Shown here piece by piece: positions 11,101 to 41,232 of a stretch of 64,000 bases of DNA. Positions within the stretch are counted from its first letter, which is position 1; the number at the start of each line of letters is the position of its first letter. The stretch is from Lytechinus pictus (taxonomy: Eukaryota). The translations under genes and the position numbers were made by a program. The stretch spans positions 9,240,001 to 9,304,000 of the forward strand of contig NC_087251.1 in assembly GCF_037042905.1 (NCBI RefSeq). The letters run 5' to 3'. Under the pieces are notes generated by a model. That model was given only the letters and a program-made list of their open reading frames with translations. It searched no databases and was not told the DNA's origin.

Positions 11101-12269
11101 AAAGACGAACCATGAAATTATAATTCAAATTGAGTAGTTTCATTAATTTCATTGCTATATTCTTTAATGGTAATCTGGTGTTGACTTTGTAGGCATGGTA
11201 ATTATATAATGATACCATGTCTTTCTCAATGTTTGATTAATCTTGGTTAACGCGATGGAAATATCTCTCATTGATTAGAGAAGAAAATTGATTACTTCAG
11301 TCATTTATTGTGATGGGGTCATTCAATCCATCCGTAGAAAACAAAAATCAATAATTGCAATCCTTACCCTTCTTGGTATACAACAATAGATCAACTGGAC
11401 TGTTGTGTCGATAATGGAGCTCCAACGAGGTCCGAAAAATTCAAAGGTGTGTTGAACAATACTGACAATAACTGTTTTCGTTTGGTTTTGATTTTTTTTT
11501 AATCCAGACAATAAGTTTATTAGACGGTGGTGAAGCAGCCAACCTGGATGATATGATGGCAGATGTCATCGACATGGGATCGTCGCCACCCACTGACGTC
11601 ACGTCAAGGAAGAACGATTCACCCGCCTCTTTCTCTCCAAGAAATTTGACAGCGTCCCCTCTTCCTCCAAGAAATCTGACACAATCCCCTCATCGATTGG
11701 CTGGCGGACGCCCTATCTTTAAACGACGGGGCTTCAGCTCATTAGATTCGGGAATTTCATTCAGCGACACAGCGTCTGTCGCGTCCGAACGGGAGTCGAC
11801 GACATCGACCACCAACCCAGCTGAGGATGAGTTACCAAGGATGTCTCGATTACGTAATCGTCGGGGCACTATTTGCATGGGGTCGTTGAGTGCGTTGGTA
11901 GACTTAGAATCAAGACGTTCATCATCATCCAGTCCATGTCCTTCCCAAACGACCTCGAGCCAGCGATCAAATGATGAAATCGAAGAGGAAGTCGAAGATG
12001 AGATTCAGAAGAGGATCTTACAGAGAAAGAGTCAGTTGGTGATGCAGGCTGCACCAGGGAGCGTGACAGTATCATCCGCCGTGTCAAGGCTTGAAGCTCG
12101 GGCTATCTCAAAGACAACCAACGGAAGATTGAAGAAAATCATGGGTAATCTAACATTAGAAAGAACAACATCTGAACTATTGAGCATGAAAGCAGCCATG
12201 AACGCCGCAGCAAAGAGAATGCAGTTTGATAATAGCAAAAAATCAAAATCATTAGACAGCAGTGATTAA
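7023..12269 (+). CDS. Uncharacterised Ser/Pro/Arg-rich protein, two exons (7023-8168, 11508-12269), about 635 aa
   Basis: Two long ORFs with higher GC than their surroundings. Donor GAG|gtaaat at 8168 and acceptor ttttttttaatccag|ACA at 11507 are both phase 0 and join in frame (HTDSFE|TISLLDGG). Stop at 12267-12269; AATAAA at 12349 and 12356. A possible acceptor at 7011-7012 means upstream exons may exist. Confidence 0.8.
8271..8430. repeat. (AAG/AGG)n purine microsatellite in intron
   Basis: Direct inspection. Confidence 0.95.
9960..10548 (+). mobile_element. 3' fragment of an L2/CR1-group LINE inside the intron of the + strand gene
   Basis: Translates to ...FARTKTALNSF...KEWNRLPQSIRSSPTLPIFKK; 3' UTR stem-loop ggggcccc...ggggtccc, then AATAAA and (cttatatca)2. 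Confidence 0.7.
11508..12269 (+). CDS. Exon B (last coding exon) of the uncharacterised S/P/R-rich gene
   Basis: Polypyrimidine+CAG acceptor, open to TAA at 12269, polyA signals downstream. Confidence 0.82.
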   Translation, partial: TISLLDGGEAANLDDMMADVIDMGSSPPTDVTSRKNDSPASFSPRNLTASPLPPRNLTQSPHRLAGGRPIFKRRGFSSLDSGISFSDTASVASERESTTSTTNPAEDELPRMSRLRNRRGTICMGSLSALVDLESRRSSSSSPCPSQTTSSQRSNDEIEEEVEDEIQKRILQRKSQLVMQAAPGSVTVSSAVSRLEARAISKTTNGRLKKIMGNLTLERTTSELLSMKAAMNAAAKRMQFDNSKKSKSLDSSD

Positions 12270-14454: not shown

Positions 14455-16323
14455 CCCAAAAGACGTTTTTAAGGAAATAGAAAAAATTTCTTTTAATTTT
14501 ATTTGGGGATGAAGAGATAGAATAAAACACAAGGTTCTATATCAAGACTATTCTGTTGGAGGACTGAGAGCTCCAAATTTTGAGGTCTTTGTTAAGACCC
14601 AACGAATAATGTGGATTAAACGTTTGCTAGACGGAGGGAAAAGTTCGGGTTGGAAAGCAACCTTCGAATATTTTTTAGCTCTTTAGGTGGTCGAATCATA
14701 TTTCTGTGTGATTATGATACGAGTAAAATGAATTTGAAAGGTATACCATTATTTTACATAGATATGCTGAAGGCATGGCACGAATTGGATAAGTGTAGAC
14801 ATTTTGGAGGGAGACATTTTTGAAATAACAAGCGTATATGCCTCAATAATAAGACCTTTTTTTATATTGAATTATTTCATAAAGGTATAGTTAAGGTCTC
14901 GGATATAATAGTTGGAGGTCAATTAAGACCAGTTTCATACTGGTATAATCTGAAATTTTCATCTGAAAACTTGCTCAAAATTCAAAAGATATTTTCAGTA
15001 ATAACAGAAGAGTGGATACAAGGTGATTTTATGGAAATGGATACCGACAATTTTGAAATTCAATTGATGATATGTGGGCATGTTCAGAAACTATGTGATT
15101 TAAAATCTAGACGAATGTATGACCACTTAATCATTGAAAATTTTCAAATTGATTATGTATTTCATGTTACAGATGGGCAATCCGAATATGATTTGGGAAT
15201 GTGGGAACTGAAAGAAGTATTTCTGAGACTGAAATGTGCAATGCTATGCAATAAACAGAGAATGTCAATACAAACAATTACAAGGGGCTGTGTACACGAA
15301 AATGGAACTTTTTAAATTTGGTTTTGAGACATATAATTTGTGTTCCTTTTGTAAAAAAGAAGTTGAGTCTTACCAACATTTATTTTTTTATTGTCCTGAA
15401 GTTAAGCGATTATGGGAAGAGATGAGTAAAATATTTCAACTGAATGAACTTGGCAGTGACAGTTGGAAAACAATTTTCATGGGGATATCTGGAAATACGA
15501 CAATAGTAACTTTAATAAACTGTATCATATTCTTAATTAAATATATTATTTTTAGTTCAAGAAAACAGGGAATATTGACAACCGTACAGAAAGTGACACA
15601 TTTGGAGATATAGAGATACGAAATATCAAATAGCGTTTAAAAAGGGGAAGCTGGGGTGCACTTAAGGAAATGGGAACAAATCAATGCATACCTTTCTTAA
15701 TACTATGGATGTATTGGTTGCTTCATTTTGTTTGTTTTGTTTTTGTTTATTTGTTCAAATACAGATAGTTGTACCAGAGCAGGATGCATCGTGTGTGGGT
15801 GTACGTGTGTAGATGGATGTGTGAGTTTTGTGACGGGGAAGAAGGGGGAGCTGTGGGTGGAGCTGTGGGTGGTGGTGAGTTGAAGTGAGCTTGTGGGAGT
15901 GTCTGGGGAGAGAGATGAGGGGGTATGGGGGTAAGGTAGGGACGTTTTAGGATAATAACCTTCCTCTAATTAACCTTTAAAATAATCTTTTATCCTTTTT
16001 TTATTCTTGTACAATTAATGTGTGCAAAAAAGATTATTTCTATTCTATTCAGGGAAAAAAGTCATCTTTTACAATTTTTTTCTTTTTTTGCCGATTGATA
16101 TGGGTTTTCCCCCTTTGCTTTCACATTGTTATAGAAGAGAAATTTGGCAGTTTAACTTCATTTGTAATCATTTAAAAAATATTTGTAATCTCATTGATAT
16201 TGATATATTCAATTGTTTGTTTATTTATTGTATACATGCAAAGAATCTTTATTTATATGAATTGTGATTGTAAACTTATTGATTTGAAAGAGGAAGAAAA
16301 TAAAATATTATTCAAAAAAAAAA
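14455..16323 (+). mobile_element. 5'-truncated, decayed L1/Tx1-clade LINE (ORF2 C-terminus, 3' UTR, polyA)
   Basis: Broken frames give FNFIW..RDRI, GGLRAPNF, WIKRLL and the cysteine motif CSFC...ESYQHLFFYC..VKRLW. Ends in AATAAA and an A-tract at about 16299-16323. Confidence 0.85.
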
Positions 16324-22488: not shown

Positions 22489-25400
22489 CTGTAGTAAATG
22501 AAAACAAAAGGAATAGAAATTTAGTCGATTGGTCGATAATGCATTGTTAGGTCACGTGGACTAAACATGACAGTTGATTAATCTCCGACTGATCAATTTA
22601 TGTCATCAAGTATATTTTAACACATTCCCTCACATCATTCTGTTTCTTTTTGCCATTAATATAATTTTTGTCATTAAAGATGAATCCAATGACCAAAATG
22701 ATTAATTATATTTTATTACAATGATTTAATAAAGCACCGGTATCAATTATTTAACTAAATAAAAAAGAACTCCCAAAGACAATCACAGAGCATGGTAATC
22801 ATTTTCAAAATCTCACCTGTTTATTTAGGAGGAAATAGATGATTGGATTATGAATGGTACACAGCTTGGCGAAAAAAGGCGGAAAGGTACCGGCCAGGGG
22901 AGTAATAACAACATTTTCCCCAAAGGCAACGTAAAGAGAGAAACCAGAATAGGGTGCCCATGTAATGAGGAAGAAGGTGATCATGATGAAGATCATCTTA
23001 GTAACTTTACGGTCTGCCTTAGCTTCTGACGACATAGCAGCTTGAGTCTGTGATATCTATATCGCAATGAAAAGGACGAATCCGTTAATGAAAATGGTGA
23101 GAGAGATTGATAACCTGGGTAACGAGATATTTTTGTTTAATGGTGGGTTTGATTTTTTAAATAAATGATGTAATTTTCACATTGTTAATTCATTCTACAC
23201 TTAATAATATTATATTGCATTTTGAAAGGGCTACGTAACTTTGTTTAGTAGCCATTCACAAAGTTTCTTATAATTTTCACCTTTTTTTGGGGGGGGGGCT
23301 AGGAGAGACCTATCATATTCTCACACAGGAATGTGATCAATTCATGTAACCCAATGCATTAAGCGTGATATAACACAGTATCTCTGTACATCTATCAATT
23401 CAATTTTAACCATTCATCAAAATCATTTCTTTATTAACATAGTAGCAATGCAACGACGGCAAAATGAATAAATTACTTTTTTGACTGCGTAGACAAGGAG
23501 TCCATAAGAGAAGATGATGATGGTAAATGGGATAACGAGAACCATGACAAAGATGAAGATGATGTAACTAGAATCACCGGGTAAGTTGGAGTTCCAAGCA
23601 ATAGAGCAAGCTAGATGAGATGAAAGAATAAACATAGAGATAAGTTCACTAAAGTTAATGGCATGGTATGTGACAACATGGAAGATAAGAGAAGGATGCG
23701 AGGTTCGCAGGTCAGGAGTTTAAAGAGGGAAAACTAAAAACATCAAAGACAATTATTTTGAAAGGGAGCAGGGAAGATGATAGGAGAATGTGCATGATGG
23801 TAAAGAAGTGGATGATGGAGAGGGAATAGGATGAGAATGCAAAAGACAAAGAATAAATAGATAAGAAGTTGAAAGACGTGATCGGCGGTTATAGCAAATC
23901 TAACGAACGACAATATATGGATGGAAATATTGATCATGCAACCCATTGCAACCTAATTTTGTTTACAATGTATCGCTAACCGAAATATTGTGAAAGTCTC
24001 TTCAAGCAAATAGAAGTATACTGTCGTAGATGGGGCTCTGTAAAATACCTGAATTTATTGCATTGATAAATCAAATTACTGGTAATTTTCGCTCAAATCA
24101 ATGCAGCAACAGATCGATGCAGATGAAAATTTCAAAGAGGTCTGAATGCCAAACAGCATGAAGAATTATGTCAATATCATACCAAAGATATTGGATTTCT
24201 TAAAGACTATAGAATTTATCCCGATGTCTCCAATATTTACTGATTGATTCTCAACATTATAGATCCAACGTTTAATCATATTTAAGGAAAAAATATCTTA
24301 AACATCGATCAATTCGATGAATGTTGTAACTTCAAATTCATATACCTCTTCACTATGTCATTAATTCAGTTATTAAGTTTTCATTGTTTGAATGCAAATA
24401 TTTTGGATTTTTGTTTTATCGTGAGAAATAAATCACTCAATCAATTCCACGCTCGAATTTTATGTGCTAGAAACCTAGAACAGCCGATCAAGTAAAGTCA
24501 ATGTTTTACCTTCTAAATAAGTGTTATCTTCAAAATTTTGATTTAGCACACGTTAGTGCATGTGTACATGGAAAATGAAACATCAGCTAAATTGAGGCAG
24601 TACTTGCTTATAGACATTACTTTTAGACTTGACGTTACTTTGATCCCTTGTTCTTGGCTTCACCTTCGGTAAGCAAAACAAACAGGACAGTTTTAAGTTT
24701 TACACTTTATCATGAGCTAGATGCACTTGACGTGTTGTTTTAGCACTTCAGGTCTTAGAGTGGCAGTGATATGTGTGTGGTTCAGGTTGTTGAAGGAAAA
24801 TGAGAAGTGCATAAACGGCTACAATATGTTTTAAAGAACAATATACGAATGACCTAAATGCCACGTCCACCACCACGACAAGTTGATTTACATTAAAAAA
24901 AACATAACCCTGAAAATTTCTTTATAATCAGATGTAAAATAAAGTTGTTTCATTGTTGTTTGCATATTTTTACCAAACAGTTATGAACAAAAGTATTGAT
25001 TCTTTTAATCATAATTGAAATATGAAAAAATACTCATATAATTCTAAATCATGATTTGACTCAATAAAAACTTTCTTTATTATCAATTCTAAAATATAAT
25101 AATATTTTCTGAAAATACAAACGTAACAATGAAAGTGTGACATTATTGGCTCTCTCATTAATTTTGCATATACCATCTGTGTGTGCATTATGTGTTGTGA
25201 AATTATAAGCAATATTAAAGAATGAAGTATCTTTTTTTATTTCATATCCCATTTCGATGAAATGTTCAGTGTTGTACTGTACATATATTATTTCCTTTAT
25301 CTCTAATGGTATTCTGATGATCGTTTTTGACAGGATGGACTTGAGCCTTAAATAGATTACCCGTTCCTGGTCCTTCATAAGTGTAGCTATTCCATCCGAA

Positions 25401-27495
25401 AAGAGGTGGTAAACAGATGATAAGTGAGTAGATCCATGTGAGAGCAATAAAAAATACAGCCCAGTTATGGGTCATCTTCTGAGCAGTGAATGGTCTTACA
25501 ACCAGCATACATCGTTGAATTGAAAGGGCTGCCAGAATAACAATCTGCTCCGTCCCTACGTGGAAATTAGGATTATAATGAATATTTGTTATCTGGTTAT
25601 TGGCAATAGGAGGCATATCGACCTTTTTTAATGGATAACGACTTTACATATCTCAAACTGATATGGGAGTAAACTGTTAGTTGCCATGGTAAAGACTAAA
25701 ACGGGGGAATAACGATTCAATTTACGTCTCCAAGGCACTCACTCGGTGACTGCGTTGAAGAAATTGATTTTAATGACTCTTTAAAAAATATTATTCTCAA
25801 AGTTCTTAATTTCGAACAATATAACCCAAAGTTCCAAATTCAAGAATACATGCTGTGAAATTTCATTTGTATAAAAGTCTCCAAATAGACACAAAATCAT
25901 ACAAGCTTTAAAAGTAATCCCATAATGGAATATCAATAAGTTGTTTCAAGCCTGTTCTAAAATAAACATAATAAAAGAAACATACCAGGGGAAAAAAACG
26001 TAACTTGATAGATTTACTTGTTATTTCACGTTTTCATGGAAAATTAATACAAAGATATAAGCTTTCTGAGAGTATATCAGATTATTATGTCTTGATTTGC
26101 ATCGACGATATTTATAAATCTCGCGTATAGAAAATAAATTTAAAAAAAATCTGTCACTGATAATGCAAGTTTTTTAAAGAAAAGCTGCCAGTATAAAATA
26201 AGGGAACTTTTGTATTATAAGATAAAGGAATTTTTTATCTTTCAACCCTGACAGTAATGGAATAGGGATACGATACTACGAAATTTTCAGAATTATGAAA
26301 TTCTGATATTTCATATTCAATACTTAAAAATTATCAGAAATAGGAACACACGTTTCAAAATGATAATATTTTTCTTTCTCCAAAATGAATAGGAATATTC
26401 CTATTTAAAAGTCAGGTCCACCTCAAAAACTTTTAATTTAAATCAATAGAAAAAATTCAGACAAGCATAATGCTGAAAATTTCATCAAAATCGGATGTAA
26501 AATAAAAAAAAGTTATGACATTTTATAGTTTTGCTTATTTTTAACAAAATAGTCATACGCACAATTTAGTCACATGCAAATGAAAGAATCGATGATGTCC
26601 CTCACTCAATTTTTCTTTTGTTTTTTATTGTTTGAATTATAGGATACTTGGTATTTCAATTTTCACAGATTTGACAGTAAGGATCAACTTGACAGAACCA
26701 TAAATGTAAACAATAGTAATTCCACATGTTCAGGGAGAAATAAAACTTTGTTTCACAGGAAAATGAGGAGAAAATAAGAATTTTCATTCTTCATATAATA
26801 AAGTACAAAAAAGTGAGTGAGTGATGTCATCAGTTCCCTCACTTGCATACCGACCGGGATGTACATAACTATTTTGTGAAATTGAGCGAAACTTAAAAAT
26901 GTCATAATTTTCTTAGTTTACATCCAATTTTGATTAAATTTTCATTGTTATGCTTGTTGAGTTTTTTTCTTTTTATTCAAATAAACTTTTTGTTGGAGTG
27001 GACTTGTCCTTTAATAGGAATAACTGGACTGAACTTACCAGCAACAAAAACTAAGAATGCATAAAGGGTACATCCCAAATCTCCAAAGAGCCATCGACCT
27101 GCAAAGTTTGAGGCGAAAGTGAAGGGTGAGGCCAGGCACGAGATTATGAGATCACTTAAACTGACATTAAAGAGAAAGCTATTGATAGGATGCCGTAATG
27201 ATGGATATCTAGCAAAGAGAACCATCACCAAGCCGTTGTTGAGTATCCCGAAGATGGTTAGAAAACCTGTGTAGACTGTGAGGTAGTTATACGTTGACCT
27301 TGAAACAGGCACCACCAGGCTGCTTGGACCAAACGTAGAGGGCGGCGTCGCGTTTCCTATGCCGCTGAAAGCGTTGACGGTTGTCAATACATCTGTCATA
27401 AAATTCGACATTGAAGTCGATTTAAGCGTTGAAGTCCACGGTGATGATCCAGGAAAGGATGGTGTCGAGTTCATATTTGGGGTTGAATGATTCAT
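22060..27495 (-). CDS. Opsin1: Ciliary-type opsin (echinoderm Opsin1-like, encephalopsin/TMT/c-opsin group); 5 coding exons: 27495-27039, 25555-25361, 23610-23477, 23056-22817, 22488-22060; 484 aa
   Basis: The exons join in frame through GT-AG introns (phases 1,1,0,0; 457+195+134+240+429=1455 nt). 7TM class-A GPCR with TM1 GILNN, TM2 LSD, C110 in GCTLY, GWNSYTYEGPGTAC (E181/C187), TM6 WAPY, TM7 FFAKLCTIHNPIIY (K296-equivalent Lys), then the c-opsin NKQF and a CC pair at the rhodopsin palmitoylation position. Confidence 0.95.
22817..23056 (-). CDS. Opsin1: Opsin coding exon 4 (IL3-TM6-TM7, retinal-binding Lys)
   Basis: Acceptor gcgatatag|ATA, donor CAG|gtgaga; encodes ISQTQAAMSSEAKADRKVTKM...FFAKLCTIHNPIIYFLLNKQ. 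Confidence 0.95.
23477..23610 (-). CDS. Opsin1: Opsin coding exon 3 (EL2-TM5)
   Basis: Acceptor tctcatctag|CT, donor AAAAAA|gtaatt; encodes ACSIAW...IPFTIIIFSYGLLVYAVKK. Confidence 0.93.
25361..25555 (-). CDS. Opsin1: Opsin coding exon 2 (TM3-TM4-EL2)
   Basis: Acceptor tttccacgtag|GG, donor ACGG|gtaatc; encodes GTEQIVILAALSIQRC...PPLFGWNSYTYEGPGT. Confidence 0.93.
26409..27010. mobile_element. Long-TIR MITE with TTAA flanks (Kolobok-like), copy 1, in opsin intron 1
   Basis: TTAA|aagtcaggtccac...gtggacttgtcct|TTAA; largely palindromic; homologous to copies at 52529 and 53210. Confidence 0.85.
27039..27495 (-). CDS. Opsin1: Opsin coding exon 1 (N-terminus to TM3)
   Basis: ATG at 27495 (MNHSTPNMNST..., several N-x-S/T sequons); donor GCTG|GTAAGT after 27039. 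The start codon is uncertain because an in-frame ATG also lies at 27603. Confidence 0.9.
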
Positions 27496-27554
27496 CACAA
27501 TAGATCCAATGATATTAGACTGCAAAAAAAAGCAGGGTTGCAACAATGTAAAAG

Positions 27555-27712
27555 TCTTTGGAATTAAGAGAAACGCTATATTGGTTGTCAAAACTGTCCC
27601 CATTGGCTCTTAACCCCCAACCACAACGCACAATGCTCGTACAAGGACTATCAAAATGGACCCCAAATAAGTAATCATCCTGATAATCTTAGAGTCCCAC
27701 TAAGAGGGGTTC
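27555..27712 (-). promoter_or_regulatory. Candidate opsin proximal promoter with clustered K50-homeodomain (Otx/Crx-type) sites
   Basis: TAATCA (27672), TAATCT (27684), TAACCC (27611), TAAGAG (27701 and others) and a minus-strand CCAAT (27602-27606) lie within about 220 bp of the ATG. Confidence 0.35.
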
Positions 27713-29724: not shown

Positions 29725-32700
29725 ATAATAATAATAATAATAGGCATTTATATAGCGCCATCTATCTAGAAGTATTCAATTCCGAGGCGCATAATACAAA
29801 AAAGTATAAGAGAGTTCGGAAGAGTGTCAAAGTGCCAATAACTAATACGGTTAGAAAAGATAAGACTTCAGTTTAGATTTGAAGCTATCTAGTGATGGTA
29901 TAATTCTTAAATTCAACGGCAAATTATTCCAGAGAAGGTGCTGAGGGAAAGAAAGCTCGCACATTATGCTACACTTGTCTTGGGAGTCTTAAGAAGTTGC
30001 TGGTGTGATGATCTTATAGGCAATGAGCTGGTGTATAAGGCATGACAAGGTCTTGTAGATATTTTGGTGCCATACCATTTAACACTTTCCAAGTGATAAG
30101 AAGTATTCTAAATTCTATTCGCTTCCGGATTGGCAACCAATGTAACTTTTTTAGAATTGGTGAAATGTTTTGATATTTTGAAAACCCTGGCAGCTGTATT
30201 CTGATCATACTGAAGTTTATTGACATTGTGTGAGGTTATATTAGAAAGAAGAGCGTTTCCAACATCTAATGGAGTTAGTACAAATGAGTGTATAAGAATA
30301 GCAGCAGACTTATGGTCAAGAACTTTCCTAATGCTGTTAACATTATATGAATATTATACTGTAGTATACTGATTGACATTATTTTCTTTTCATGTTCATC
30401 CATGGACATATTTTCATCATATACAACACCGATTTCGAACTGATGACAAAGCTTTACTCAAGGAGTCCCCGACCTGTATAGTGCGGTCCTTAATCAAATG
30501 ACTTTGTGATTTAGAACTAATAATCAATAAATCTGTTTTACTTTCATTTAATTTCAACTTACTATTTAACATCCATGACCGCATATCATCTATCGTATTT
30601 TGTAAATGAAACCTGGCAGACAACTCACTAGCAGGGTCAGTTGGATCAGGGACGTCCCTGGTTGGATCAAACGAAACATACAATTGTGTATCGTCCGCAT
30701 ACATGAATGTTTACGCCATGTTTATATGTGCAATTTTTGCCAGAGGACTAGAATAATGGCAAAAAACAACGGCCCGAGGACTGAACCTTGGGGCACTCGG
30801 AAAAGATGTTTAATAGGAAATGACACATTTTCACCGATCTTGACAACCTGTGACCTTTCATGAAGATAAGATGAAAACCAATCAAGTACAGCTCCTCCTT
30901 TGCCACAACATTTCAAACGATCCAATAGCAAGTCATGCATTGTCAACAGTATTAATGCTGACGGCAGATCAAGCAGGATGAAAACAGCCTCCTTGTCATC
31001 AACAGCACGAAAAATATCATTTGATACACGAACCAAAGCAGTTTCTACCCCATGACATTTCCTATATGCAGATTGAAAAGGTTCAAACAATTATTCATTG
31101 TCAAAAAATGGTCAGTAAAACGCACAGCCACAACCTTTCCAATATCTTTGACACAAACTTTAAATTAGAGACAGGTCTATCGTTTTTTAATTTCTCCGAG
31201 TCAAACGATGGTTTTTCAAGAGAGGAGTGACAAGTGTCTGCTTGAAATCATGAGGAAAATTACCAGTCTCAAGAGAAATGTTGACAATTTTTGTGATAAC
31301 TGGAAGCAACAGATTCATATGTTTCTTAAAGACCCAGATTGGAATTGGATCTAATGAGCATGATTTTGCAGGGTAAGAGGACATAATTGTCTTAACTTCT
31401 TTATCAGTTGTCATTTCAAATGTTTTCATTATAGGAGTGGCTGTATGTGAGGAGTCACTTTCTTCAACACTATGAGATGGGGTACCCTGCATTGAGTCTA
31501 AATTATCCCGGATAGTGGATATTTTTTATACAAAGAAATGACTGAAACGTTCTGCTATGTCTAATTGTGATATATTTTCCGGCAATTTTGGGTTGTTCTT
31601 TTGATGGAGAGCACTATCAATAACTCTGAAAAACTGTCCACTATCTTTACAATTTGACAGCTGTTCCTTCAAGTACTTTGCTTTGGCATCTTTTATCATA
31701 TGCCAAACTAAGAGGCGCTGTTTAGTAAAATTTTCTCTACTTATGTCTCTTCTCTCAGCTCGCCAACGCCTCTCAAGTCGTTTGCGCAAGCGTTATGCTT
31801 CCGCTATGTCAGATGAATACCAGACATTCCTCGGTCGGATTGTTACTTTACTTTTTGTTAATGGAGCATGTTTGTCCAAGATAGACTGAAGACTAGCATC
31901 ATATTGATGGACAAGAGTATTAACATCAGAAGTAGGATGTAAGAGAAGATGATGCAAGAATATCAAGAGCCAACTTTTCATGATTAATGGCCTTGAGCTT
32001 CGTGTATGAAATAACCTTTCTGTTTAGTTAAGTTAAGGTTTAATTAATTTCAAATTACAGTGTATTGCAGCATGGTCAGTGAGAAAAGATGACACCTCCA
32101 GAGCTCATCATCGGTACGCGTAATCCCAAAATCTATAATGTGACCAGTTTTATGAGTAGATTCATTTACGTGCTGTTTTAGGTTGAAAGACTCAAGTAAT
32201 CAAATAATTTTGTGTTCTCTTGATTAGCAGGATTATCCCAGTGAATATTAAAATCACAAACAGCAATCAACTTACTTGAAGTTGACATTAAGGATATTAG
32301 AAAATTAGAAAATTCATCAAATAAGACATTAAAACCTACTCTATTCTTTTGACTATACGGTGGTGTATAGATAACTACAAGCATAATATGAAATTTTGTT
32401 CCATCAAACTTCATAGAAACACTCATACTCTCAAAACTGGATGCAGTATCTTCCATTTGAATATATGTACTCTTGATTGAAGAATGGTGTATAATGGCAA
32501 CTCCTCCACCGCTACCAATGGAGCGAGGTACATGAATTAGATTAAATCCAGGTCAGTGGTGTTAATTCACCAATTCTGATAACCACGTTTCTGTTAAACA
32601 TATAAAGTCGATATATGTTTAGTTAGGTGATCAATAACAATATCTGTCTTGTTACACACTGATCTTTAAAGAAACCAGTGTCTACAACCCCTAAGGTTGA

Positions 32701-33310
32701 AGCTTCTCTTTTCTTTTTTGCCTTGGTTCCATCCACCTTTTCTTTAACGCCTTGTAAAGTTAAGAGCACCCCAAACCAAGGGAACGAATGTTTGCCCAGA
32801 CATCATTGGGGAGTTGATGTGCACAATTCAACTCTAAAAGATTGTCCCTAGAATACACATACTGACACTTATTAGGAATCAAATTTATATTTATTTCTGT
32901 GTTATTTTCACCACCCTTGTGACTACTGGAAAGAGGATCTGGGCCTGGGTTAGGGTGAATATCACCTGCAAGGAGCAATAGGGATATTCTCAAAGTAGCA
33001 CAAGAATAACTATAGTAGATAATAAACTTTCCAATATACTTGCACTCCACATGCCCTCCTGACAACCATTCAGTCCTCCCACAAAGACTGAACCTTATCT
33101 CTTTAGAATTAGGATCTGGTGGACAGACACTGAATGACAAAATAACCAACAATAGAAGACTTTGCAGCTTCATCCGATAAAAAGAAATATAGTAAAATTC
33201 AGATGAATTCAGAGAAGGTTGTGCAAGCTGCCTCTCAGCGCTAAGTCTATATCTATATCCACACAATAAGAGCAATTTCTCTATGTAATCAGCAAGATGT
33301 GTTCTCATCT
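29725..33310 (-). mobile_element. Decayed near-full-length L2/CR1-group LINE (frameshifted EN+RT) with a 2A-like N-terminus
   Basis: Collinear fragments: N-terminal ORF with GDIHPNPGP; RSVCNKTD and CLTETW (EN); DFNIHWD; LDKHAPL; KSCSLDPIP; FQSAYRKCHGVETAL; VPQGSVLGP; YADDTQLY; LHWLPIRKRIEF. The 3' end gcgcctcgg...tggcgctatataaatgcc(tat)n at 29725-29790 is an L2-type tail. Confidence 0.92.
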
Positions 33311-33855
33311 TTCATATCGGTGTGATAAAAATTGATTTCAATTTTGATTTAGATTATTTTCTTGTCAAATGTGAAATGTAATTGTTTACATGTTACTGAA
33401 CTATGATGCGAGGGTTGGTATAGTTTCCTTGTATTTTCGGCCAATCATAATGACCTTTGCTTAATGCCGAAAGCGTGTAGCCTCTTATGGTTATACTATA
33501 TTATCTACTATGCAATTTATAGTACATGTACTTTTTTTTACTATATTATCCGCCTCCCATAGGGTTCTTAATTTATCTTTCCAGACAAGTTAATCATATT
33601 CCGTCACTGTATTTTCCTGTCCATAAACACAATTTTTCTAAGTCTAAATCAAACTTACAAATTAATTTATTATCATAACACCCTTTCTTTCTCAATCTCT
33701 TAAACCTTGTTATATATCACATTTATTATCATCATTATTTTCATTTTAATTGATTGTTTCTGCAGCTTTTCATAAATTATACAAAGTAACAACGACAATA
33801 AATGATACATATATAATACATACATACATATACACATATATACATGTATATATAT

Positions 33856-33894
33856 AGCACCTAACAAGGTGGATACGTGCGTTATATCATTATT
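33856..33894 (+). mobile_element. Isolated 3' tail of the SINE family seen at 167-425
   Basis: agcacctaacaaggtgga matches 352-369 and is followed by a similar A/T tail. Confidence 0.65.
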
Positions 33895-34443
33895 TTTTAT
33901 ATATCGCATCTTCGTGTATTATATATATATTGGCAATGTTTGAACTAAACGACAAAAATAAGCGTGACTCTGTCTTCAAACTTTGGATAAAATGCAAGTT
34001 ATTATGACATTATTTATTTGAGGCAATATTTGAGGCGCCATTGTATCTCGTGGCAATACAATCTGTTTAGTGACAAATATATATTACTGAACGGTCGACC
34101 TTCGTCATTTGAGCGGATGAACTATTGATAATTATTCGAAGTACTATTACCATCGTAAATCCTATAAAGAAAGTGACTCCTTAAACTATTTTCCTAATGA
34201 ACCATAATGATACTCAATACTGATAAATCATTTGAATTATTCAGGCAGAACTGTTTTGCATTCAAACTCTTTTACCCCAGTGTCATCTTTCTACCAATAA
34301 TGAAATCTATCAGACGTCTTGTGGGGCATCTTGTGCTTTCCGTTTGCCATTATGCATGGTCGTGCATAATAGAGAGTTATTATATTACAGGACAGGAACG
34401 TTCCTGAGGTTTTAATTACTTGGTCTTGGTCTATAACTGTTCA

Positions 34444-34851
34444 GATAATGCCACATGGGCTAAACATATTTGGTCTACTATTAATTTGCTCTAATTGCCG
34501 TTGGGTTTCCACTTCGTCTACTAAATGAGACTTTGATATATTAAACTTTGATTCATTCATGTAATCTAAATGGTGTAAGACCAAATGGATATTAAATAAA
34601 ATAGGTATAGTCTAACTGGATATTAGACGATGCGGTAAATTGTCTGATTGATAATGCCACATGGGCTAAACATATTTGGTCTACTATTAATTTGCTCTAA
34701 TTTCCGTTTGGTTTCCACTTCGTCTACTAAATGAGACTTTGACATATTAAACTTTGATTCATTCATGTAATCTAAATGGTGTAAGACCAAATGGATATTA
34801 AATAAAATAGGTATAGTCTAACTGGATATTAGACGATACGGTAAATTGTCT
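34444..34851. repeat. 206-bp tandem duplication (2 copies)
   Basis: gataatgccacatgggctaaacatatttgg... starts at both 34444 and 34650, with few mismatches. Confidence 0.9.
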
Positions 34852-34982
34852 AAATAGCCATTAGGATAAACGGTTACGAGACGAATCTGCCATAGACGTA
34901 TACTAGGATTGGACCATGTGGGATGAGAATACATGGAAAATAGACCAAGCGAGTATTGTAGAGCAGCAACAAAATGAGAAAA

Positions 34983-35017
34983 AGTAGAAGTAGTAGTATA
35001 GTAGTAGTAGTAGTAGC

Positions 35018-35070
<53 letters not shown>

Positions 35071-35110
35071 AAGTAGAAGAAGAAGAAGTAGTAATAGTAG
35101 TAGTAGCAGT
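34983..35110. repeat. (TAG)n microsatellite
   Basis: Direct inspection. Confidence 0.95.
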
Positions 35111-35111
35111 A

Positions 35112-35335
35112 TACTGCAAAACTTTGGTGTTGATTTAACACCAGCTCGGAATTTATATATGTCCACACCAGAGAAGTATTGAAATAACACCAGTTTGGAA
35201 TCAAACCGATGCTGTTTTAATACTAATTGGTGTTGTATAAATACCTATCTGGTGTTAGACCAAAAGGAAACAAACTGGTGTGGACATATGTAGATTCCGG
35301 GCTGGTGTTAAATCAACACCAGAGTTTTTGCAGTG
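35112..35335. mobile_element. MITE with CACTGC-type termini and 2-bp TSD (EnSpm/CACTA-like), copy 1
   Basis: ta|tactgcaaaactttggtgttgatttaacaccagc...gctggtgttaaatcaacaccagagtttttgcagtg|ta. Confidence 0.8.
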
Positions 35336-35457
35336 TAGTAATAGAGGTAGTCTGAATAGAAGTCATTGATTCAACCTGACTAGAATGTTTTCAGATGATT
35401 AATGGTTTGATTAATCCAAGGACATTGTATCATCATGGCTTAGTAGAGTATATCAAT

Positions 35458-35747
35458 CAGTGGTGTAAGATAGAGGGCTTGGGGCGCTTGCCCCCCCCCC
35501 CCCGAATTTTTCAAGACCAAGAAAATAAAAGAGAAGAGGAAAGAGAGATAAGGGTGACAAAATATATCATTTTCTGAATATTATGTCATAATCTATAACA
35601 AAACTGGATATTGTTGACAATTTTCCTGCTCGCTTCGCTCGCTCGCAACTTTTTAAAAAAATTTTGCCCGATGCGCCATATCTGCCCCTCATTTTTTTAT
35701 TTTATTATTATTTTTTTTTTTTTTGGGGGGGTGTCATTACACCACTG
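35458..35747. mobile_element. MITE with CAGTGGTGTAA termini
   Basis: cagtggtgtaa...ttacaccactg; a degenerate relative is visible at about 20540-20800. Confidence 0.7.
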
Positions 35748-37765
35748 CTAATAGCAATGAAAGTAGCAAGTTAAGAAGGATACCCAATACAGATTGAGAG
35801 CTTCTTTCCAAGAAACAACTGCGATTAATGCATAATGACACAGTCAGTTTATGAGAATGCAATGAGATGTGAGTGTTCCCTCAACGAAAGTTTGAGTAAA
35901 GTTACACCATCTCTCCGATTGCGGCGCCAACGAGGGTAACATAAACAAAACAACGTTAAGGATTTATTAGCAGTTGGGGTATTTGTATGGGAGATCCATT
36001 CCACTCTTGAGACTAGATCAGAGTAGGGTGAAAATAAGAGGAATCGGTTGGTCAAAATACCCCCATTTCTCCTCTTCGTTGCTGACACTGTCTATTCACA
36101 GGAAATTAAAAGGCGCTTTTAGCAGTTTCCCGCTTTTACATGATGATTACTAATAATGATTTAATTTTTTTCTCAATGGTAATGATACAGAGAGTCTTAC
36201 TCGACTGCGATATAATGCAACTAAGCTCCCATAATATCGCTCGTGAAAAATGCAACCTTTGTCAGTTCGTCAGGCAATTAAATCCTATATTCAGATAGTG
36301 TTTGAGCTGCACCACTGTACTAAAGCACAATCACAAAGACTGGCAAAGAGTAACTTTGTTTTTAAGATGCGATTGTTTAAAAGACGGTCCTGTTTACTTC
36401 GTAAGTTAAATATTGGTGTGATTTGAATAAAATTAATTCAGTCAGAATTCCAAATTCGTTAAAACTAAAAAAAAACATAATCCTATTCCCAATATATGAC
36501 TACCCGTTACTTTCGAAGCATTTTCTTTCCCTCAGATTGTACGGTGTCCATTTTCGATGCATCGTTATATACGTTCAACATGATTTTTGTTTAATAAAAG
36601 AAATAAAGATCGCTTTACATTTCTTATATCATTTAGCGCTTAGACACGTCGTTCTGATGTATTAAGCGCTATATATCAACGGAATATCATTATTATATTA
36701 TTACGGTTACCTTGATTACCAGTGAGTGTATTGATAAGGAAGGATGATTTGATACATCCGTTTTGCAAGATATTTGCAAAATCTGTGATCAACGCCAATC
36801 TTTTCAGGCGCCAAAATAGTCCTTTATTAAGGGGTGGGGTTTTCAAGATTCAAGAAATTTAAGGCTTTATGAAAACAATTTCTTGTAGACATTTACGATA
36901 AGTCATTATAATTAATTTCTGAGTTTTGTTTTTTGCTTTCCGTTAATTCATCCTTGCAATATTATTTTCGATACATATTTAATGTCATTTCATGACGACA
37001 TTCAAAATCGTGTTTGGGGCATCTCAATTTTCTTTTGCTCTTCAATGATAAGCCGGCGGTCTTCATGGTCTTTGTCCCAGCTGTTTTTCCCCTTCTATTT
37101 ATTTTATTTGTTTGTATTTTGAGTTATGACTGTCCATGTTCTGATTTTCATCCCATGTTTACTCCCCATCTCTTTCTCTCTCTCTCTCTCTCTTCCTATA
37201 TAAAGGGACTTCTGCTCCGTTTAGTTTATATAAATGTCCTTGCAAGATCTGCCAATTATTGATCGATGTTATCCCAAGATATTAAGTGACAAGAATTCAC
37301 ATGGCATTGTGGGACATATCACCTTAAGATGGATTAATAATTTAACGGTATTATGTAGAAAAATGATGTAAGGAAACGTCAGTTTCAGGTGATGAAGATG
37401 GGTTCTGATATCATATCGCAGTATCTCTGTATCTCTATCATATTGCTAATAGTATAACACGATCATAAAAGTATTCTGTTAATGTTTTATCCGTCCTAAC
37501 GTTTTCAGTGTCGCAAGTAATCACGGGCACCGAATCTACTTGAATGTGGTCAATGCGCATTTTGTAGATGAAGACACACATGATTCTGTGCCTAATCGAT
37601 GACGTAAAATGGGCAAATGGAATAGCTCTTCTTATTCAAGTCATCTGGGACTCGTATAGCAGGAGTATACCTAAATGGAATAAAGACCTGTGCATTCCAT
37701 GATTAAGAACAATTGACGAGTCATCTCTGATATCTTAGGAATGGCTGTTCTCACTGGACAAAAAT

Positions 37766-40700
37766 AAGGTAGTATTTATTGTCCAGATAAATAAATAAGT
37801 GGAAATTTGCATTTTTACATGGTATTGAACATACATAACATAGCATAGAAAATGAACATATTTACAGAAAATCAAACAATCACATATAGTCAATTATGAT
37901 ATACACGTGCAAATGCTACCCACTGGGTAGCATTTGAAAAAAATACTGTTATTGACATTAAAATTAAGATTGAAATGGAAATCTGAACTGAAAGTTAGAT
38001 ATCGGATATTGAATTGAAATTACTTTAGAATTGTAATAAATCAGTACTATAAATCTTCACAGCATTGTCCACTTGTAATTGTTATTGTTATCAGTATTTA
38101 CATATTATTTTTATTTTCAATATTGTTGTTTTAAAGAATTAACATCAACTACCCGACAAGGTAAATTTACATTATTAGGCATATCATTATTCTTATACAA
38201 TCCCTTCCTCATTCAGCATTCGGATTGAGCTTGGCACGAATGAGTTTAAGAACCTATTTGTTCGACAACGTGCTGACCGTAGTCTATTACCAGATCTCAT
38301 CCTTTCGTAGTTTACATTCAATGGGTGATCATTATTGTATAGTATCTCTTTTGCCTTTTCAAGTATTCTGTTTCGACATACATCAGTGAGGTTTAGGTCG
38401 TGTCCTGTTATTTTTTCTGCTTGTCTGACCATTCTACTTAGTATATTCAGATCTTTTTTGCGACAGCTTGTGAACCAAACCACACAATCAAACATGATGA
38501 TGCTTTCAATAAGTGATCTATAGAATAAAACCATTATGGTGCGGTCAACATGGAATGACTTCAATTTTCTTATGAAATACATCCGTTGTATTGCCTTCTT
38601 GTAAATTGAATTGCATTGATCTCCCCATTTTAATCCATCGTCAATAATGGTACCTAAGTATTTGAACTTATGAACTATTTCAATTTCCTCTTCATTGATT
38701 CTAACACGACAATCACTTGGTTCTACTTGTTTATTATTTCTAAAGTCAAATATCATTTCTTTGGTTTTTGTTGCATTGAGATCTAAGAAATTGTCATTAC
38801 ACCAGTCGGTAAACCATTTTACACAGTTTAGATACTCAAGTTCACATTCCTTAATTAGACCAACTATAACTGTGTCATCTGCGTATTTGAGAATAGAGAC
38901 ATTTTGAGAAAGGTAACGACAGTCATTGGTATATAGAACAAATAGGATTGCAGAGAGCACACAGCCCTGGGGTGAACCTGTATTTGTTACCATGGGATTG
39001 CTCAAAGCATCTTGGACGCGCACGCGCTGGATTCTATTCCGAAGAAAGTCAGTTAGCCATAAAATTAGGGACGGTTTCACATCCAGACATTTCAGCTTCT
39101 CGACAAGTCGATGGGGTTGAATAGTGTTAAATGCGGACGAAAAGTCAACAAACAAAGTGCGAGCGTACGATTTCTTTTCATCTGTGTGCTTGCAGAGAAG
39201 ATGTGTCAAATAAAGGATCGCATCTTGAACGGACTTCTTTGGCTGATAGGCGTACTGATGGGGGTCAACCAGGTGCTTTATGGGTTGGAGAATATACTTC
39301 AGTATAATTCGTTCTAGGCACTTCATCGCTATTGAAGTCAATGCTACTGGACGATAGTCGTTATGTTCAGAGGGGCGGGGCTTTTTGGCTACAGGGATAA
39401 CAATAGAAGACTTCCAGCAAAGGGGTATCACTTGTTTATCTAACGACATTTGGAACAAAACGCAAAACGGCAATGCCAGTTCTCTCGAGCAATTACGTAG
39501 TACCTTTCCGGTAATTAGATCGGGCCCGGATGCCTTCCTTGGATTGATTCTATTGAATTGGGCTAATACATCTCTTTCTTTAATCTTAATAGTATCATCT
39601 CGAGAGTCAGTTAATTCAGCTATCTGTCCGTCTATTATATCACTGAAGTCATGGGTATCAAACCGTCCGTAGAACCTATTAAGTTCATTTGCAATCTTAA
39701 AAGGGTCATCAACATTCGCGAGTGATTGATCTCTTTTGGGAACATAGTCGGTCATTGATTGCAAACACTGCCACGCTGCTCGCGGATTATTATTTTGAAA
39801 GTGATTTTCGAGCTTTCTTCGGTAGTCTCGTTTCGCTCTGTTTATTTCCTGACGCAGTCTTGTGTGAAACGACTTTACGGTTAGTCGATCACCGGCATCG
39901 AATGCTTCCTTTCTTGCTTTGATGATTCCTTTAATATCTTTAGTAATCCAGGGTTTAATATTTGGGTACACCTTAATCGTTTTACTTTGTATATGTAAAT
40001 CCTGACAAAAGACGATGTAATCATTAACTGCACTTGTAATTTCGTTTATGTCGTCCGAAGCTTCAAAGAACACATTCCAATCAGTTATTTGAAAGCATGT
40101 TTTGAGGTTGTCAATTGTTTCATTATTCCACACTTGTACCACTCGTTTCTGTACTTTTTGCGTTTTAAGTTTCTGCCGATATTTTGGTAGCAAGTGTATT
40201 ACGCTATGATCCGAAAGTCCTATTCCAGGTCGAATTACGGTCTTATAGGAATCTTTAACAGAACAATAACATCTATCCAATATATTCCCTTCTCGTGTCG
40301 GCTTGTCAATTACTTGACAATAGTTCGGCAACATAGCTTCCAGTCTACAGTTATTAAAATCACCGAGTACAATTTTGGGGGAGTCCGGTGATTCAGCTTC
40401 CATCTCCCTAACTTTATTTTGAATAAGCTGTTCTGCTTCATTTTGATTAGCATCGGGAGCAATGTAGACCAGAAATAAATGAACTTGGGGAAATTCTCTG
40501 GGCAAGTAGAACGGGCGAAGTGACACACATAGCATTTCCAGATTTTCGTTGCATGTAGAATTTTTAATTGTAAAGTTCGTACACCATCTATCATTTACAT
40601 AGAGACATATCCCACCACCGCGTCTTTTCTTGGTTTGTTGAAATGAACGATCCAATCTCGCTACATTAAAACCATCTATTCGTATACAATCGTCATTAAT

Positions 40701-41232
40701 GTCAGGGTTTAGCCATGTCTCTGTAAAACATATTATACTCGAATTCCGGAAATCATTAATGTACCTTGTTAGAGCTTGAATCTCATCCAGTTTATTGTAC
40801 AGTGAACGAACATTGCTTAGTGTAATTGCAGGTAATGGGGGTCTGTTTCCCCTTTTCCGAACTCTGTTGCGGATCCCTCCGCGTTTCCCTCTCCGCTTTT
40901 GCTGAGGTATGCCATTATCATCCTCGCGGGTCGGTGTCCACTCTGGGAGATTCAATGGGCTAGACTTGGACGTTGTGTAGTCGGCTAGGTAATATAAGTA
41001 TTCTCGCGAATACTTGATAGTAGTAGTTTGTCCGGGTGATGCATATACATGACTATTTTGTGGTAGAACGATTACGAAAAGTAGCACAAAACATACCCAG
41101 ATGCACGAGATGGATTTGACGAACATGATGACATAAACATAACTTCAAAGACAAATCACAAAATCCGGAAAATAAGCGACAAAAACAGAGACAAAATACC
41201 ATGTAACAGGTCGCCGTAGTACAGCGCCCTCA
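37766..41232 (-). mobile_element. Probably full-length Rex1/Babar-like non-LTR retrotransposon (single ORF)
   Basis: Uninterrupted ORF, about 100-nt 5' leader, about 430-nt AT-rich 3' UTR ending ...ctggacaataaatactacctta. Ends are approximate and no clear target-site duplication was seen. Confidence 0.85.
38193..41126 (-). CDS. Intact LINE ORF: APE-type endonuclease plus reverse transcriptase, 977 aa
   Basis: EN motifs NVRSL, CFTETWL, RRGGGICLYV, LGDFN, LDRCY, SDH; RT motifs KASGPD, YRPVALTS, DFSSAFNTI, GSPQGCVLS, YADD, YLG. C-terminal HPL...RSGNRLRS...RTNRFLNSFVPSSIRMLN resembles Rex1/Babar elements. Confidence 0.95.
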   Translation of the reverse strand: MFVKSISCIWVCFVLLFVIVLPQNSHVYASPGQTTTIKYSREYLYYLADYTTSKSSPLNLPEWTPTREDDNGIPQQKRRGKRGGIRNRVRKRGNRPPLPAITLSNVRSLYNKLDEIQALTRYINDFRNSSIICFTETWLNPDINDDCIRIDGFNVARLDRSFQQTKKRRGGGICLYVNDRWCTNFTIKNSTCNENLEMLCVSLRPFYLPREFPQVHLFLVYIAPDANQNEAEQLIQNKVREMEAESPDSPKIVLGDFNNCRLEAMLPNYCQVIDKPTREGNILDRCYCSVKDSYKTVIRPGIGLSDHSVIHLLPKYRQKLKTQKVQKRVVQVWNNETIDNLKTCFQITDWNVFFEASDDINEITSAVNDYIVFCQDLHIQSKTIKVYPNIKPWITKDIKGIIKARKEAFDAGDRLTVKSFHTRLRQEINRAKRDYRRKLENHFQNNNPRAAWQCLQSMTDYVPKRDQSLANVDDPFKIANELNRFYGRFDTHDFSDIIDGQIAELTDSRDDTIKIKERDVLAQFNRINPRKASGPDLITGKVLRNCSRELALPFCVLFQMSLDKQVIPLCWKSSIVIPVAKKPRPSEHNDYRPVALTSIAMKCLERIILKYILQPIKHLVDPHQYAYQPKKSVQDAILYLTHLLCKHTDEKKSYARTLFVDFSSAFNTIQPHRLVEKLKCLDVKPSLILWLTDFLRNRIQRVRVQDALSNPMVTNTGSPQGCVLSAILFVLYTNDCRYLSQNVSILKYADDTVIVGLIKECELEYLNCVKWFTDWCNDNFLDLNATKTKEMIFDFRNNKQVEPSDCRVRINEEEIEIVHKFKYLGTIIDDGLKWGDQCNSIYKKAIQRMYFIRKLKSFHVDRTIMVLFYRSLIESIIMFDCVVWFTSCRKKDLNILSRMVRQAEKITGHDLNLTDVCRNRILEKAKEILYNNDHPLNVNYERMRSGNRLRSARCRTNRFLNSFVPSSIRMLNEEGIV

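What the first reader, a model, noticed from the sequence alone, without database searches (positions are those of the whole stretch)
32700..41126. Two different LINE families share an N-terminal cassette containing an eIF4E/4EHP-binding-like motif
Seen: before the EN domain both elements show the order hydrophobic leader -> YSRxxL-phi -> basic RRGxxGG. In the decayed element this is YVYSRDNLLEL (32835-32861) and a decayed TRR*RKGG (about 32732-32755). In the intact element it is IKYSREYLYYL (about 40986-41018) and KRRGKRGG. Established: YxxxxL-phi is the canonical eIF4E-binding motif (eIF4G YDREFLL, 4E-BP YDRKFL), and YxYxxxxL-phi is the 4EHP-binding form found in GIGYF proteins; YVYSRDNLL fits the latter exactly. 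Inference: the new EN-RT protein might bind the cap-binding protein on its own mRNA while the RGG tract binds RNA, stopping translation and enforcing cis-preference in elements that show no ORF1 here. I know of no description of this, but I cannot search the literature.
Basis: partly seen in the sequence, partly recalled or inferred. Interest (0 to 1): 0.75.

Follow-up and report, generated by a model that had tools for sequence, protein, structure and literature searches.

The report
Retrotransposons carrying an eIF4E-binding-like motif
Two groups of animal jumping genes (Rex1-type and L2-type LINEs) begin their single protein with a conserved peptide that closely resembles the cell's own translation brakes (4E-BPs); they may use it to grab the cap-binding factor on their own RNA, though binding is predicted here, not measured.

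Summary
Confirmed and extended. The intact element (window 37764-41231, minus) is a Rex1-type LINE with one long ORF and a 105-nt 5' UTR; the decayed one is L2-type with a 2A-like site. Upstream of the endonuclease, YxxxxL[LMFIV] occurs in 41 of 54 Rex1-type relatives (shuffles 3.5). YxxxxL[LMFIVY] occurs in 42 of 70 L2-type relatives found with a motif-free profile (shuffles 3.6). Separate profiles of each family rank eIF4E ligands first among PDB sequences (E 0.04-1.4). A predicted complex with urchin eIF4E1 scores 0.85 (best control 0.24) and uses both 4E-BP surfaces (possibly memorised). The 4EHP form is not conserved (0 of 70). New: in L2-type elements a 2A site or a second Met separates the motif from a signal-like leader, almost never both (Met in 1 of 24 with 2A, 21 of 29 without). 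Best reading: a cis-acting 4E-BP mimic standing in for ORF1p. Against: no binding data; this copy's phi is Tyr; Rex1 has no visible escape from its leader. The scan noted the L2 module before in this genome (e1-7787769). No paper found.

The parts
37764..41231 (-). Full-length Rex1-type LINE with one long ORF, young family
   Evidence: Copies L001-L005 (about 99% identical) share the 5' end at 41230-41231 (L016 is the same place as L005). 3' end 37764 from L006 and from a contig of run X5 that continues in a 9-bp tandem tail.
41127..41231 (-). 105-nt 5' UTR with three out-of-frame ATGs (41202, 41140, 41134); no room for an ORF1
38193..41126 (-). Long ORF, 977 aa from Met: leader, cassette, APE endonuclease, RT, PF09004
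   Evidence: AF2 model mean pLDDT 86
41064..41105 (-). Hydrophobic core of a signal-peptide-like leader
   Evidence: KD12 3.38 versus 1.79 in the rest of the frame held; A at -3 of the ATG. No signal-peptide predictor was available.
40992..41012 (-). Canonical 4E-binding-like motif YSREYLY (phi = Tyr in this copy)
   Evidence: lies in the low-confidence region outside the EN fold
40932..40949 (-). Putative non-canonical (lateral) motif LPEWTP
   Evidence: In the predicted complex, partner residues 69-73 touch eIF4E (closest pairs 70-72 with 89-90), and eIF4E 57, 73 and 89 are in the interface. In paralog L008 the stretch aligns to the 4E-BP1 linker.
40875..40898 (-). Basic KRRGKRGG tract; RNA binding or nuclear import inferred
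   Evidence: R85, G86, R88, G90 invariant or nearly so in the 34 chosen relatives of A3
33126..33173 (-). Decayed L2-type element: Met and hydrophobic leader
32940..32966 (-). 2A-like GDIHPNPGP (His in place of the canonical Glu)
   Evidence: an E-to-H 2A had very low skipping in PMC3708506 (section read)
32835..32855 (-). Canonical 4E-binding-like motif YSRDNLL
32772..32798 (-). Second helix WANIRSLGL (family pattern W..I..LGI), putative non-canonical motif
   Evidence: helix in the AF2 model of relative L044
32732..32755 (-). Decayed basic tract TRR*RKGG, out of frame with the motif
30722..32591 (-). Broken EN and RT remnants of the L2-type element
   Evidence: resembles STR-51/133/142_SP by eye

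Best explanation
The N-terminal cassette of ORF1-less Rex1-type and L2-type LINEs is a bipartite eIF4E1-binding module that works like a 4E-BP. The Y-x-R-x-x-L-phi helix docks on the dorsal face of eIF4E, and a second hydrophobic patch 19-30 residues after the Tyr docks on the lateral face (predicted, not shown). Inferred steps: the newly made EN-RT protein stays on its own mRNA through the RG-rich tract and the RT, takes eIF4E on that mRNA's cap from eIF4G, stops further ribosome loading and holds the 5' end. A translated mRNA thereby becomes a retrotransposition RNP, a job ORF1p helps with in two-ORF LINEs. The signal-like leader sends the unseparated product to the ER; in L2-type elements the cytosolic form is freed by 2A skipping or by starting at a second AUG just before the motif. 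Shown: conservation, pattern, position, no ORF1 in the window's family, 2A/Met complementarity. Odds: binding to an eIF4E-family protein about 0.75; cis repression given binding about 0.6.
For: Rex1-type: 41 of 54 relatives (80% de-duplication) and 28 of 34 (65%), against shuffle means 3.5 and 2.8; Y0 48, R+2 48, L+5 49, L+6 42 of 54. L2-type, motif-free query: 42 of 70; Y0 62, L+5 64, R/K+2 42 of 69. PDB profile searches over 177,635 sequences: joint profile, 8 of 12 hits are eIF4E ligands; L2-only, the top 7 of 12; Rex1-only without its best member, 10 of 11. Paralog L008 alone ranks 4E-BP1 first, aligned beyond the motif (E 0.1). Predicted complex: ipSAE 0.85, best of 3 controls 0.24, runs agree in at least 75% of contacts, partner pLDDT 63-64; the mark was reached by 51 of 78 solved and 2 of 108 mismatched microbial pairs, and by 39 of 65 and 2 of 126 eukaryotic pairs. 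A generic helix cap in the same proteins uses I14/V9/L5/F3, where the motif has Y32/F2 (34 chosen rows). The motif lies outside the EN fold. Lateral binding is what lets 4E-BPs displace eIF4G (PMC4164784, abstract and passages); such motifs lie 12-30 residues downstream (PMC5538437, passages). 2A versus internal Met: 1 of 24 against 21 of 29, Fisher p 2e-7 before any correction for relatedness; a weak tree forces at least 4-6 switches.
Against: No binding or translation experiment. The complex may be memorised from solved 4E-BP structures; the tool's calibration does not cover peptides or disordered chains, and my alignments were not used. All PDB E-values for natural chains are weak (0.013-1.4), and many top hits are short chains of the same few proteins. 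The window copy's own 48-mer finds no eIF4E ligand among 5 hits, and its phi is Tyr. 28 of 70 L2-type relatives fail YxxxxL[LMFIVY], mostly at phi; in-genome L059 and L063 have a degenerate or missing motif. Only 1 of 18 motif peptides reached each of two Pfam 4E-binding families, weakly (E 0.021, 0.085). In Rex1-type proteins a Met within 10 residues of the Tyr is at background (10 of 73) and the window copy has no 2A, so a cleaved signal peptide would put the motif in the ER lumen, away from eIF4E: unexplained. The link to ORF1 loss rests on 16 hand-picked loci and is confounded with clade. PMC5538437 says dorsal-plus-lateral binding also holds for eIF4G, so bipartite binding does not prove repression.
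Confidence: 0.45

Rival explanations
1. The motif binds eIF4E, but not to repress in cis: it gives the RNP a ride (nuclear import, P-body or germ-granule targeting), protects the cap so that full-length copies insert, or dampens host translation in trans.
For: The same sequence and model evidence. The adjacent basic tract could be an NLS (inference). Several families here have more than one copy reaching the same 5' end.
Against: No localisation data. The 5'-complete copies were found with an N-terminal query, so they are selected. Action in trans would need abundant protein.
Confidence: 0.22
2. It is an eIF4G- or Mextli-like activator that recruits eIF4E to raise translation of a short-UTR mRNA carrying upstream ATGs.
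For: eIF4G peptides are among the PDB hits; three out-of-frame ATGs precede the start.
Against: No eIF4A- or eIF3-binding domain was found in the ORF (Pfam); the cassette is about 55 residues; 4E-BPs outrank eIF4G in the profiles.
Confidence: 0.08
3. Structural look-alike: a helix N-cap (hydrophobic staple plus capping box, recalled) opening a small two-helix domain that binds RNA, membrane or the element's own protein, with no role for eIF4E.
For: S/T/D at +1 and E at +3/+4 fit a capping box; designed helical repeats are the top 3 hits of the joint profile; AF2 gives L044's two helices pLDDT 75-91 without a partner; phi is loose in L2-type elements.
Against: A generic cap in the same proteins tolerates I/V/L/F, whereas this one is nearly all Tyr followed by Arg. 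In the Rex1 model the region has pLDDT about 50 or lower. The family-only profiles put eIF4E ligands first.
Confidence: 0.2
4. The partner is 4EHP (GIGYF-like).
For: The decayed copy reads YVYSRDNLL; a 4EHP-like gene seems to be in the genome (exons at C16; class judged by eye).
Against: YxYxxxxL-phi in 0 of 70 and Tyr at -2 in 5 of 54; no chain named GIGYF among the hits; 4EHP was not modelled.
Confidence: 0.05

Closest known systems
4E-binding proteins (4E-BP1/2, Thor, Cup, 4E-T, yeast Caf20, Leishmania 4E-IP1)
   Same: Y(X)4L-phi helix, a downstream hydrophobic patch, unfolded context; they are the top PDB hits (5WB5 identified through PMC5909430 passages).
   Different: Here the module is fused to a retrotransposon EN-RT, follows a signal-like leader and precedes an RG tract; binding is unmeasured and no regulation is known.
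2A-bearing, ORF1-less APE-type non-LTR retrotransposons (Odon et al. 2013, PMC3708506; Luke et al., PMC3894237)
   Same: Single ORF with an N-terminal 2A-like site in sea urchin L2 elements. [quoted passage not shown]
   Different: Main texts have no 'eIF4' and no signal peptide. The cassette also occurs without 2A, and 2A without the cassette (P0134; P0135-P0138).
Rex1/Babar clade LINEs
   Same: RT resembles REX-11_DR by eye; PF09004 at the C-terminus; fish, lamprey and hemichordate relatives.
   Different: No description of the N-terminal leader or motif was found.
2A-like signal sequences of sea urchin NLR proteins (Roulston et al. 2016, PMC4981915)
   Same: Signal plus skipping gives ER and cytosolic forms from one ORF (abstract start and passages).
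   Different: There 2A is itself the signal, in host immune genes; here leader and 2A are about 50 residues apart and a second Met can replace 2A.

Membership tests
eIF4E-binding proteins (4E-BP-like) | Canonical Y(X)4L-phi motif, conserved | tested here: met
   41 of 54 and 42 of 70 against shuffle means 3.5 and 3.6; the intact window copy has Tyr at phi
eIF4E-binding proteins (4E-BP-like) | Non-canonical hydrophobic motif 12-30 residues downstream that contacts the lateral surface | tested here: inconclusive
   Conserved patch at that distance; modelled on the lateral pocket for one copy only
eIF4E-binding proteins (4E-BP-like) | Motif accessible, not buried in a domain | tested here: met
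   AF2 pLDDT under 50 for residues 29-45 and 55-88 around helix 47-55
eIF4E-binding proteins (4E-BP-like) | Measured binding to eIF4E and competition with eIF4G | not testable with these tools
   Prediction only
GIGYF-type 4EHP binders | YxYxxxxL-phi conserved | tested here: not met
   0 of 70; Tyr at -2 in 5 of 54
GIGYF-type 4EHP binders | Auxiliary 4EHP-specific sequences and GYF domain | not tested
   No GYF domain in the Pfam scan of the ORF; auxiliary motifs not searched; 4EHP not modelled
Rex1/Babar LINE (intact element) | APE endonuclease plus RT in one ORF | tested here: met
Rex1/Babar LINE (intact element) | RT groups with Rex1 references in a tree | tested here: inconclusive
   Compared by eye with REX-11_DR and REX-15_XT in a supplement; no tree with references
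L2 clade LINE (decayed element) | RT groups with L2 references in a tree | tested here: inconclusive
   By-eye likeness to STR-51/133/142_SP, STR-51_SP being L2 in the paper; no tree
Active 2A/StopGo peptide (decayed element) | D(V/I)ExNPGP with a suitable upstream tract | tested here: not met
   GDIHPNPGP has His for Glu; of the in-genome relatives shown, L058 and L074 have Glu; activity not testable here
Cleavable signal peptide (leader) | N-terminal hydrophobic core after a good start codon | tested here: met
   22 of 22 hand-picked in-genome leaders exceed the rest of their frame; A at -3 in 18 of 22; 33 of 40 chosen relatives have KD12 above 2.2
Cleavable signal peptide (leader) | SRP targeting, cleavage and topology | not testable with these tools
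   No predictor available; a reverse signal-anchor is not excluded

The most novel reading that the evidence does not exclude
A widespread class of animal LINEs has replaced ORF1p with a captured host function. The EN-RT protein carries its own 4E-BP, clamps the cap of the mRNA that made it, switches that mRNA from translation to reverse transcription and holds both ends of the template. An ER-targeting leader, bypassed by 2A skipping or a second AUG, sets how much cytosolic protein is made.
Probability: 0.35. Interest if true: 0.9.

Novelty: new variant of a known kind. Interest (0 to 1): 0.78.

Why it matters
How LINEs without ORF1 form an RNP, choose their own RNA and limit their protein output is open; the 2013 study that found their 2A sites saw no motif in this tract. 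A conserved eIF4E-binding module gives a point-mutation test in existing assays, and would be, in the literature I could search, the first 4E-BP mimic encoded by a retrotransposon. It spans at least two LINE groups, from sea urchins to fish, and the 2A-or-second-AUG pattern offers a purpose for retrotransposon 2A peptides.

Tried and rejected
Chance match: rejected. 4EHP-specific form: rejected as a family feature. Leader as a by-product of a T-rich UTR: unlikely, since T by codon position is 0.40/0.70/0.39 in the core against 0.37/0.37/0.39 upstream, but choosing the most hydrophobic window inflates position 2; the start-codon context is the better evidence. A first L2 count with a strict Trp anchor kept only 21 of 150 rows (13 with the motif) and was replaced by HMM anchoring (70 of 150; 39 dropped because the helix was not matched, 41 for fewer than 32 residues upstream). 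A homologue search with the L2-type cassette gave only 6 proteins. The ESM Atlas gave unnamed clusters at 0.88, a lead only. Expression: no RNA holder listed; three RNA runs gave 3, 0 and 5 reads from about 6% of each run, no test of expression or start site. A larger in-genome survey of ORF1 against motif could not be made; 16 loci of 1.8 kb were examined. Literature: no paper held the term sets; one search listed 4 papers, off-topic by title and abstract start, not read. Subscription journals, Repbase/Dfam notes and supplement file 1 of PMC3708506 were not visible and could mention the motif. Look-ups of earlier scan notes gave nothing.
Full report
Setting. The window lies in an 812-Mb animal genome. 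Its eIF4E1 exon is 98% identical to a Lytechinus pictus protein, so it is that sea urchin or a close relative. Two LINEs lie on the minus strand upstream of rhodopsin-family receptor exons.

Observation. The intact element has a 983-codon frame with endonuclease, RT and PF09004. Five copies about 99% identical share one 5' end at 41230-41231 with different flanks, and a contig of another run ends there too. The Met at 41126 is 105 nt from that end, so this family has no ORF1. Its RT resembles Rex1 references by eye (passages of supplement file 2 of PMC3708506). The decayed element resembles that paper's L2-type urchin elements by eye. It reads Met, hydrophobic leader, GDIHPNPGP, YVYSRDNLLEL, WANIRSLGL and, in another frame, TRR*RKGG.

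Is the motif selected? Rex1 type: of 121 proteins (query plus 120 hits), 117 could be anchored at the EN start, 95 had 80 or more residues upstream, and 54 remained at 80% identity. YxxxxL[LMFIV] lies in the 60-residue upstream window in 41 of 54, against 19 of 655 downstream tiles and a shuffle mean of 3.5, max 9. That query contained the motif, though most local alignments covered only about 50-60% of it. L2 type: the profile left the motif out (A4) and found 16,940 representatives at E up to 0.001 among 1.84 billion, many surely on the EN alone. Of the best 150, 70 could be examined; 42 have YxxxxL[LMFIVY] (5 of 493 tiles; shuffles 3.6, max 9) and 58 have YxxxxL (shuffles 10.6). Tyr (62 of 69) and Leu+5 (64 of 69) are nearly fixed and phi is looser. 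The 4EHP form is not conserved: 0 of 70, and Tyr at -2 in 5 of 54.

What does it resemble? A 26-column profile of 18 in-genome motifs, chosen by eye with degenerate L059 and L063 left out, gave 12 PDB hits at E up to 10: 3 designed repeats ranked first, 8 eIF4E ligands and 1 other. An L2-only profile that includes L059 ranks Caf20, 4E-BP1, 4E-BP2 and the 5WB5 chain (Leishmania 4E-IP1 complex, PMC5909430) as its top 7 of 12. A Rex1-only profile without the best-matching member gives 10 eIF4E ligands in 11 hits. E-values are weak and the hits are redundant, but the ranking repeats in both families. Paralog L008 aligns to 4E-BP1 through motif and linker (E 0.1); the window's own peptide finds no such hit. 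ESMFold2 on urchin eIF4E1 (38-227) with residues 34-84 of the window protein scored 0.85, best control 0.24, with contact agreement of at least 75% and partner pLDDT 63-64 (mark reached by 51 of 78 solved and 2 of 108 mismatched pairs). Y45, L50 and L53 sit on residues 47, 79, 83, 145 and 148-150; residues 70-72 sit on 89-90, with 57 and 73 also in the interface. With an offset of 10 inferred from the dorsal Trp, these match human W73 and the lateral pocket F47/I63/I79 named in PMC5538437 (passages). Like complexes are solved, so the pass may show likeness only. AF2 leaves the motif outside the EN fold. A helix-cap explanation remains, but a cap next to the RT in the same proteins takes I, V, L or F where the motif takes Tyr then Arg (on 34 rows that I chose).

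The leader. In 22 of 22 hand-picked in-genome elements the most hydrophobic 12-mer of the frame held lies just after a Met, with A at -3 in 18 of 22; 33 of 40 chosen relatives from other genomes have such a core, while a subgroup (P0003, P0062, P0091, P0096, P0107) keeps the motif without it. In L2-type relatives with 25 or more residues upstream, an internal Met within 10 residues of the Tyr is found in 1 of 24 with a 2A-like site and 21 of 29 without (Met frequency 1.6%; Fisher p 2e-7). A quick, weakly supported tree shows clustering but forces at least 4-6 switches. So two interchangeable devices seem to put the motif near a free N-terminus, as a cytosolic ligand would need (inference). Rex1-type proteins show no such Met excess (10 of 73) and the window copy has no 2A. 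Their leader must be a reverse anchor, be inefficient or be bypassed in a way I did not see; otherwise the motif would be luminal. This is the main unexplained point.

ORF1. Among 16 loci picked by hand from 150 EN hits, 8 have a long upstream frame, only 5-37 codons before the EN, and no motif (L067-L071, L075, L076, L081; that these frames are ORF1 is judged by position and recall, and L071 is doubtful). Three have the cassette (L072, L074, L078; L072 has upstream frames of 132 and 148 codons that I did not test), 2 keep only its tail (L073, L079), and 3 have other extensions without it (L077, L080, L082). This fits the idea but is confounded with clade. Further families also share 5' ends about 120-340 nt before the Met (estimated).

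Mechanism. Shown: a conserved, exposed, ordered cassette that ranks eIF4E ligands first. Predicted: bipartite binding to eIF4E1. Inferred: competition with eIF4G (lateral binding enables it, PMC4164784, abstract and passages, though eIF4G also binds laterally per PMC5538437), action in cis, and RNP formation in place of ORF1p. Rivals are transport or cap protection, activation, a structural look-alike and 4EHP.

What is known. PMC3708506 (abstract, parts 2 and 3 of 5 of the body, term searches, supplement passages) reports 2A in Rex1, L2, Crack and CR1 elements, links it with ORF1 absence and finds no motif in the 90-115-residue tract; 'eIF4', 'signal' and 'transmembrane' are absent from its main text. 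PMC3894237, PMC4981915 and bioRxiv 10.64898/2026.06.17.732966 (passages only) have no 'eIF4'. Five targeted searches returned nothing. The library omits most subscription journals, so novelty is probable, not proven.

Verdict. The feature is real and widespread, it works like a 4E-BP on present evidence, and it is not shown to be one. New variant of a known kind; interest 0.78.

Noticed in passing
window 25266-27609 (-): Exons of a rhodopsin-family (7tm_1) receptor, opsin-like by recall; both LINEs lie upstream of its first coding exon seen here.
   Followed up: no
L044, L053, L060, L072, L074 and others, the 50 residues before the 2A-like site: The peptide released upstream of 2A has its own conserved pattern (roughly KY.G..I.YY.NS...F...LL); a possible small secreted or luminal product of unknown role.
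   Followed up: no
P0019, P0022, P0028, P0033, P0038, P0044, P0047, P0080 N-termini: Many Rex1-type proteins start Met-Ala-Pro, consistent with an ATGGCG start of the YY1/TISU type (recalled); DNA not available to check.
   Followed up: no
L005/L016 (G000:C6:25563025-25568045): A copy of the window's Rex1 family lies next to a second Rex1-type family copy (L015-like) and a third EN on the other strand; this copy has a stop inside the motif.
   Followed up: no
L050/L053: L2-type family with a Cys-rich, PHD-like segment between the cassette and the EN (PMC3708506 notes PHD domains there).
   Followed up: no
window 37764, run X5: Another copy ends in a 9-bp tandem repeat tail; 3' parts of the family are about ten times deeper than 5' parts in that run, as expected for 5'-truncated copies.
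   Followed up: partly
window 14824-15613 (+): 3' fragment of a third LINE (zf-RVT).
   Followed up: no
window 6960-8462 and 11472-12269 (+): Long Ser/Pro/Arg-rich open frames without a Pfam family over cut-off, probably exons of a host gene.
   Followed up: no
L077, L080: EN-bearing elements with acidic 190-230 residue N-terminal extensions and no motif; G000:C6:7038838 has a 2026-codon EN-bearing frame.
   Followed up: no
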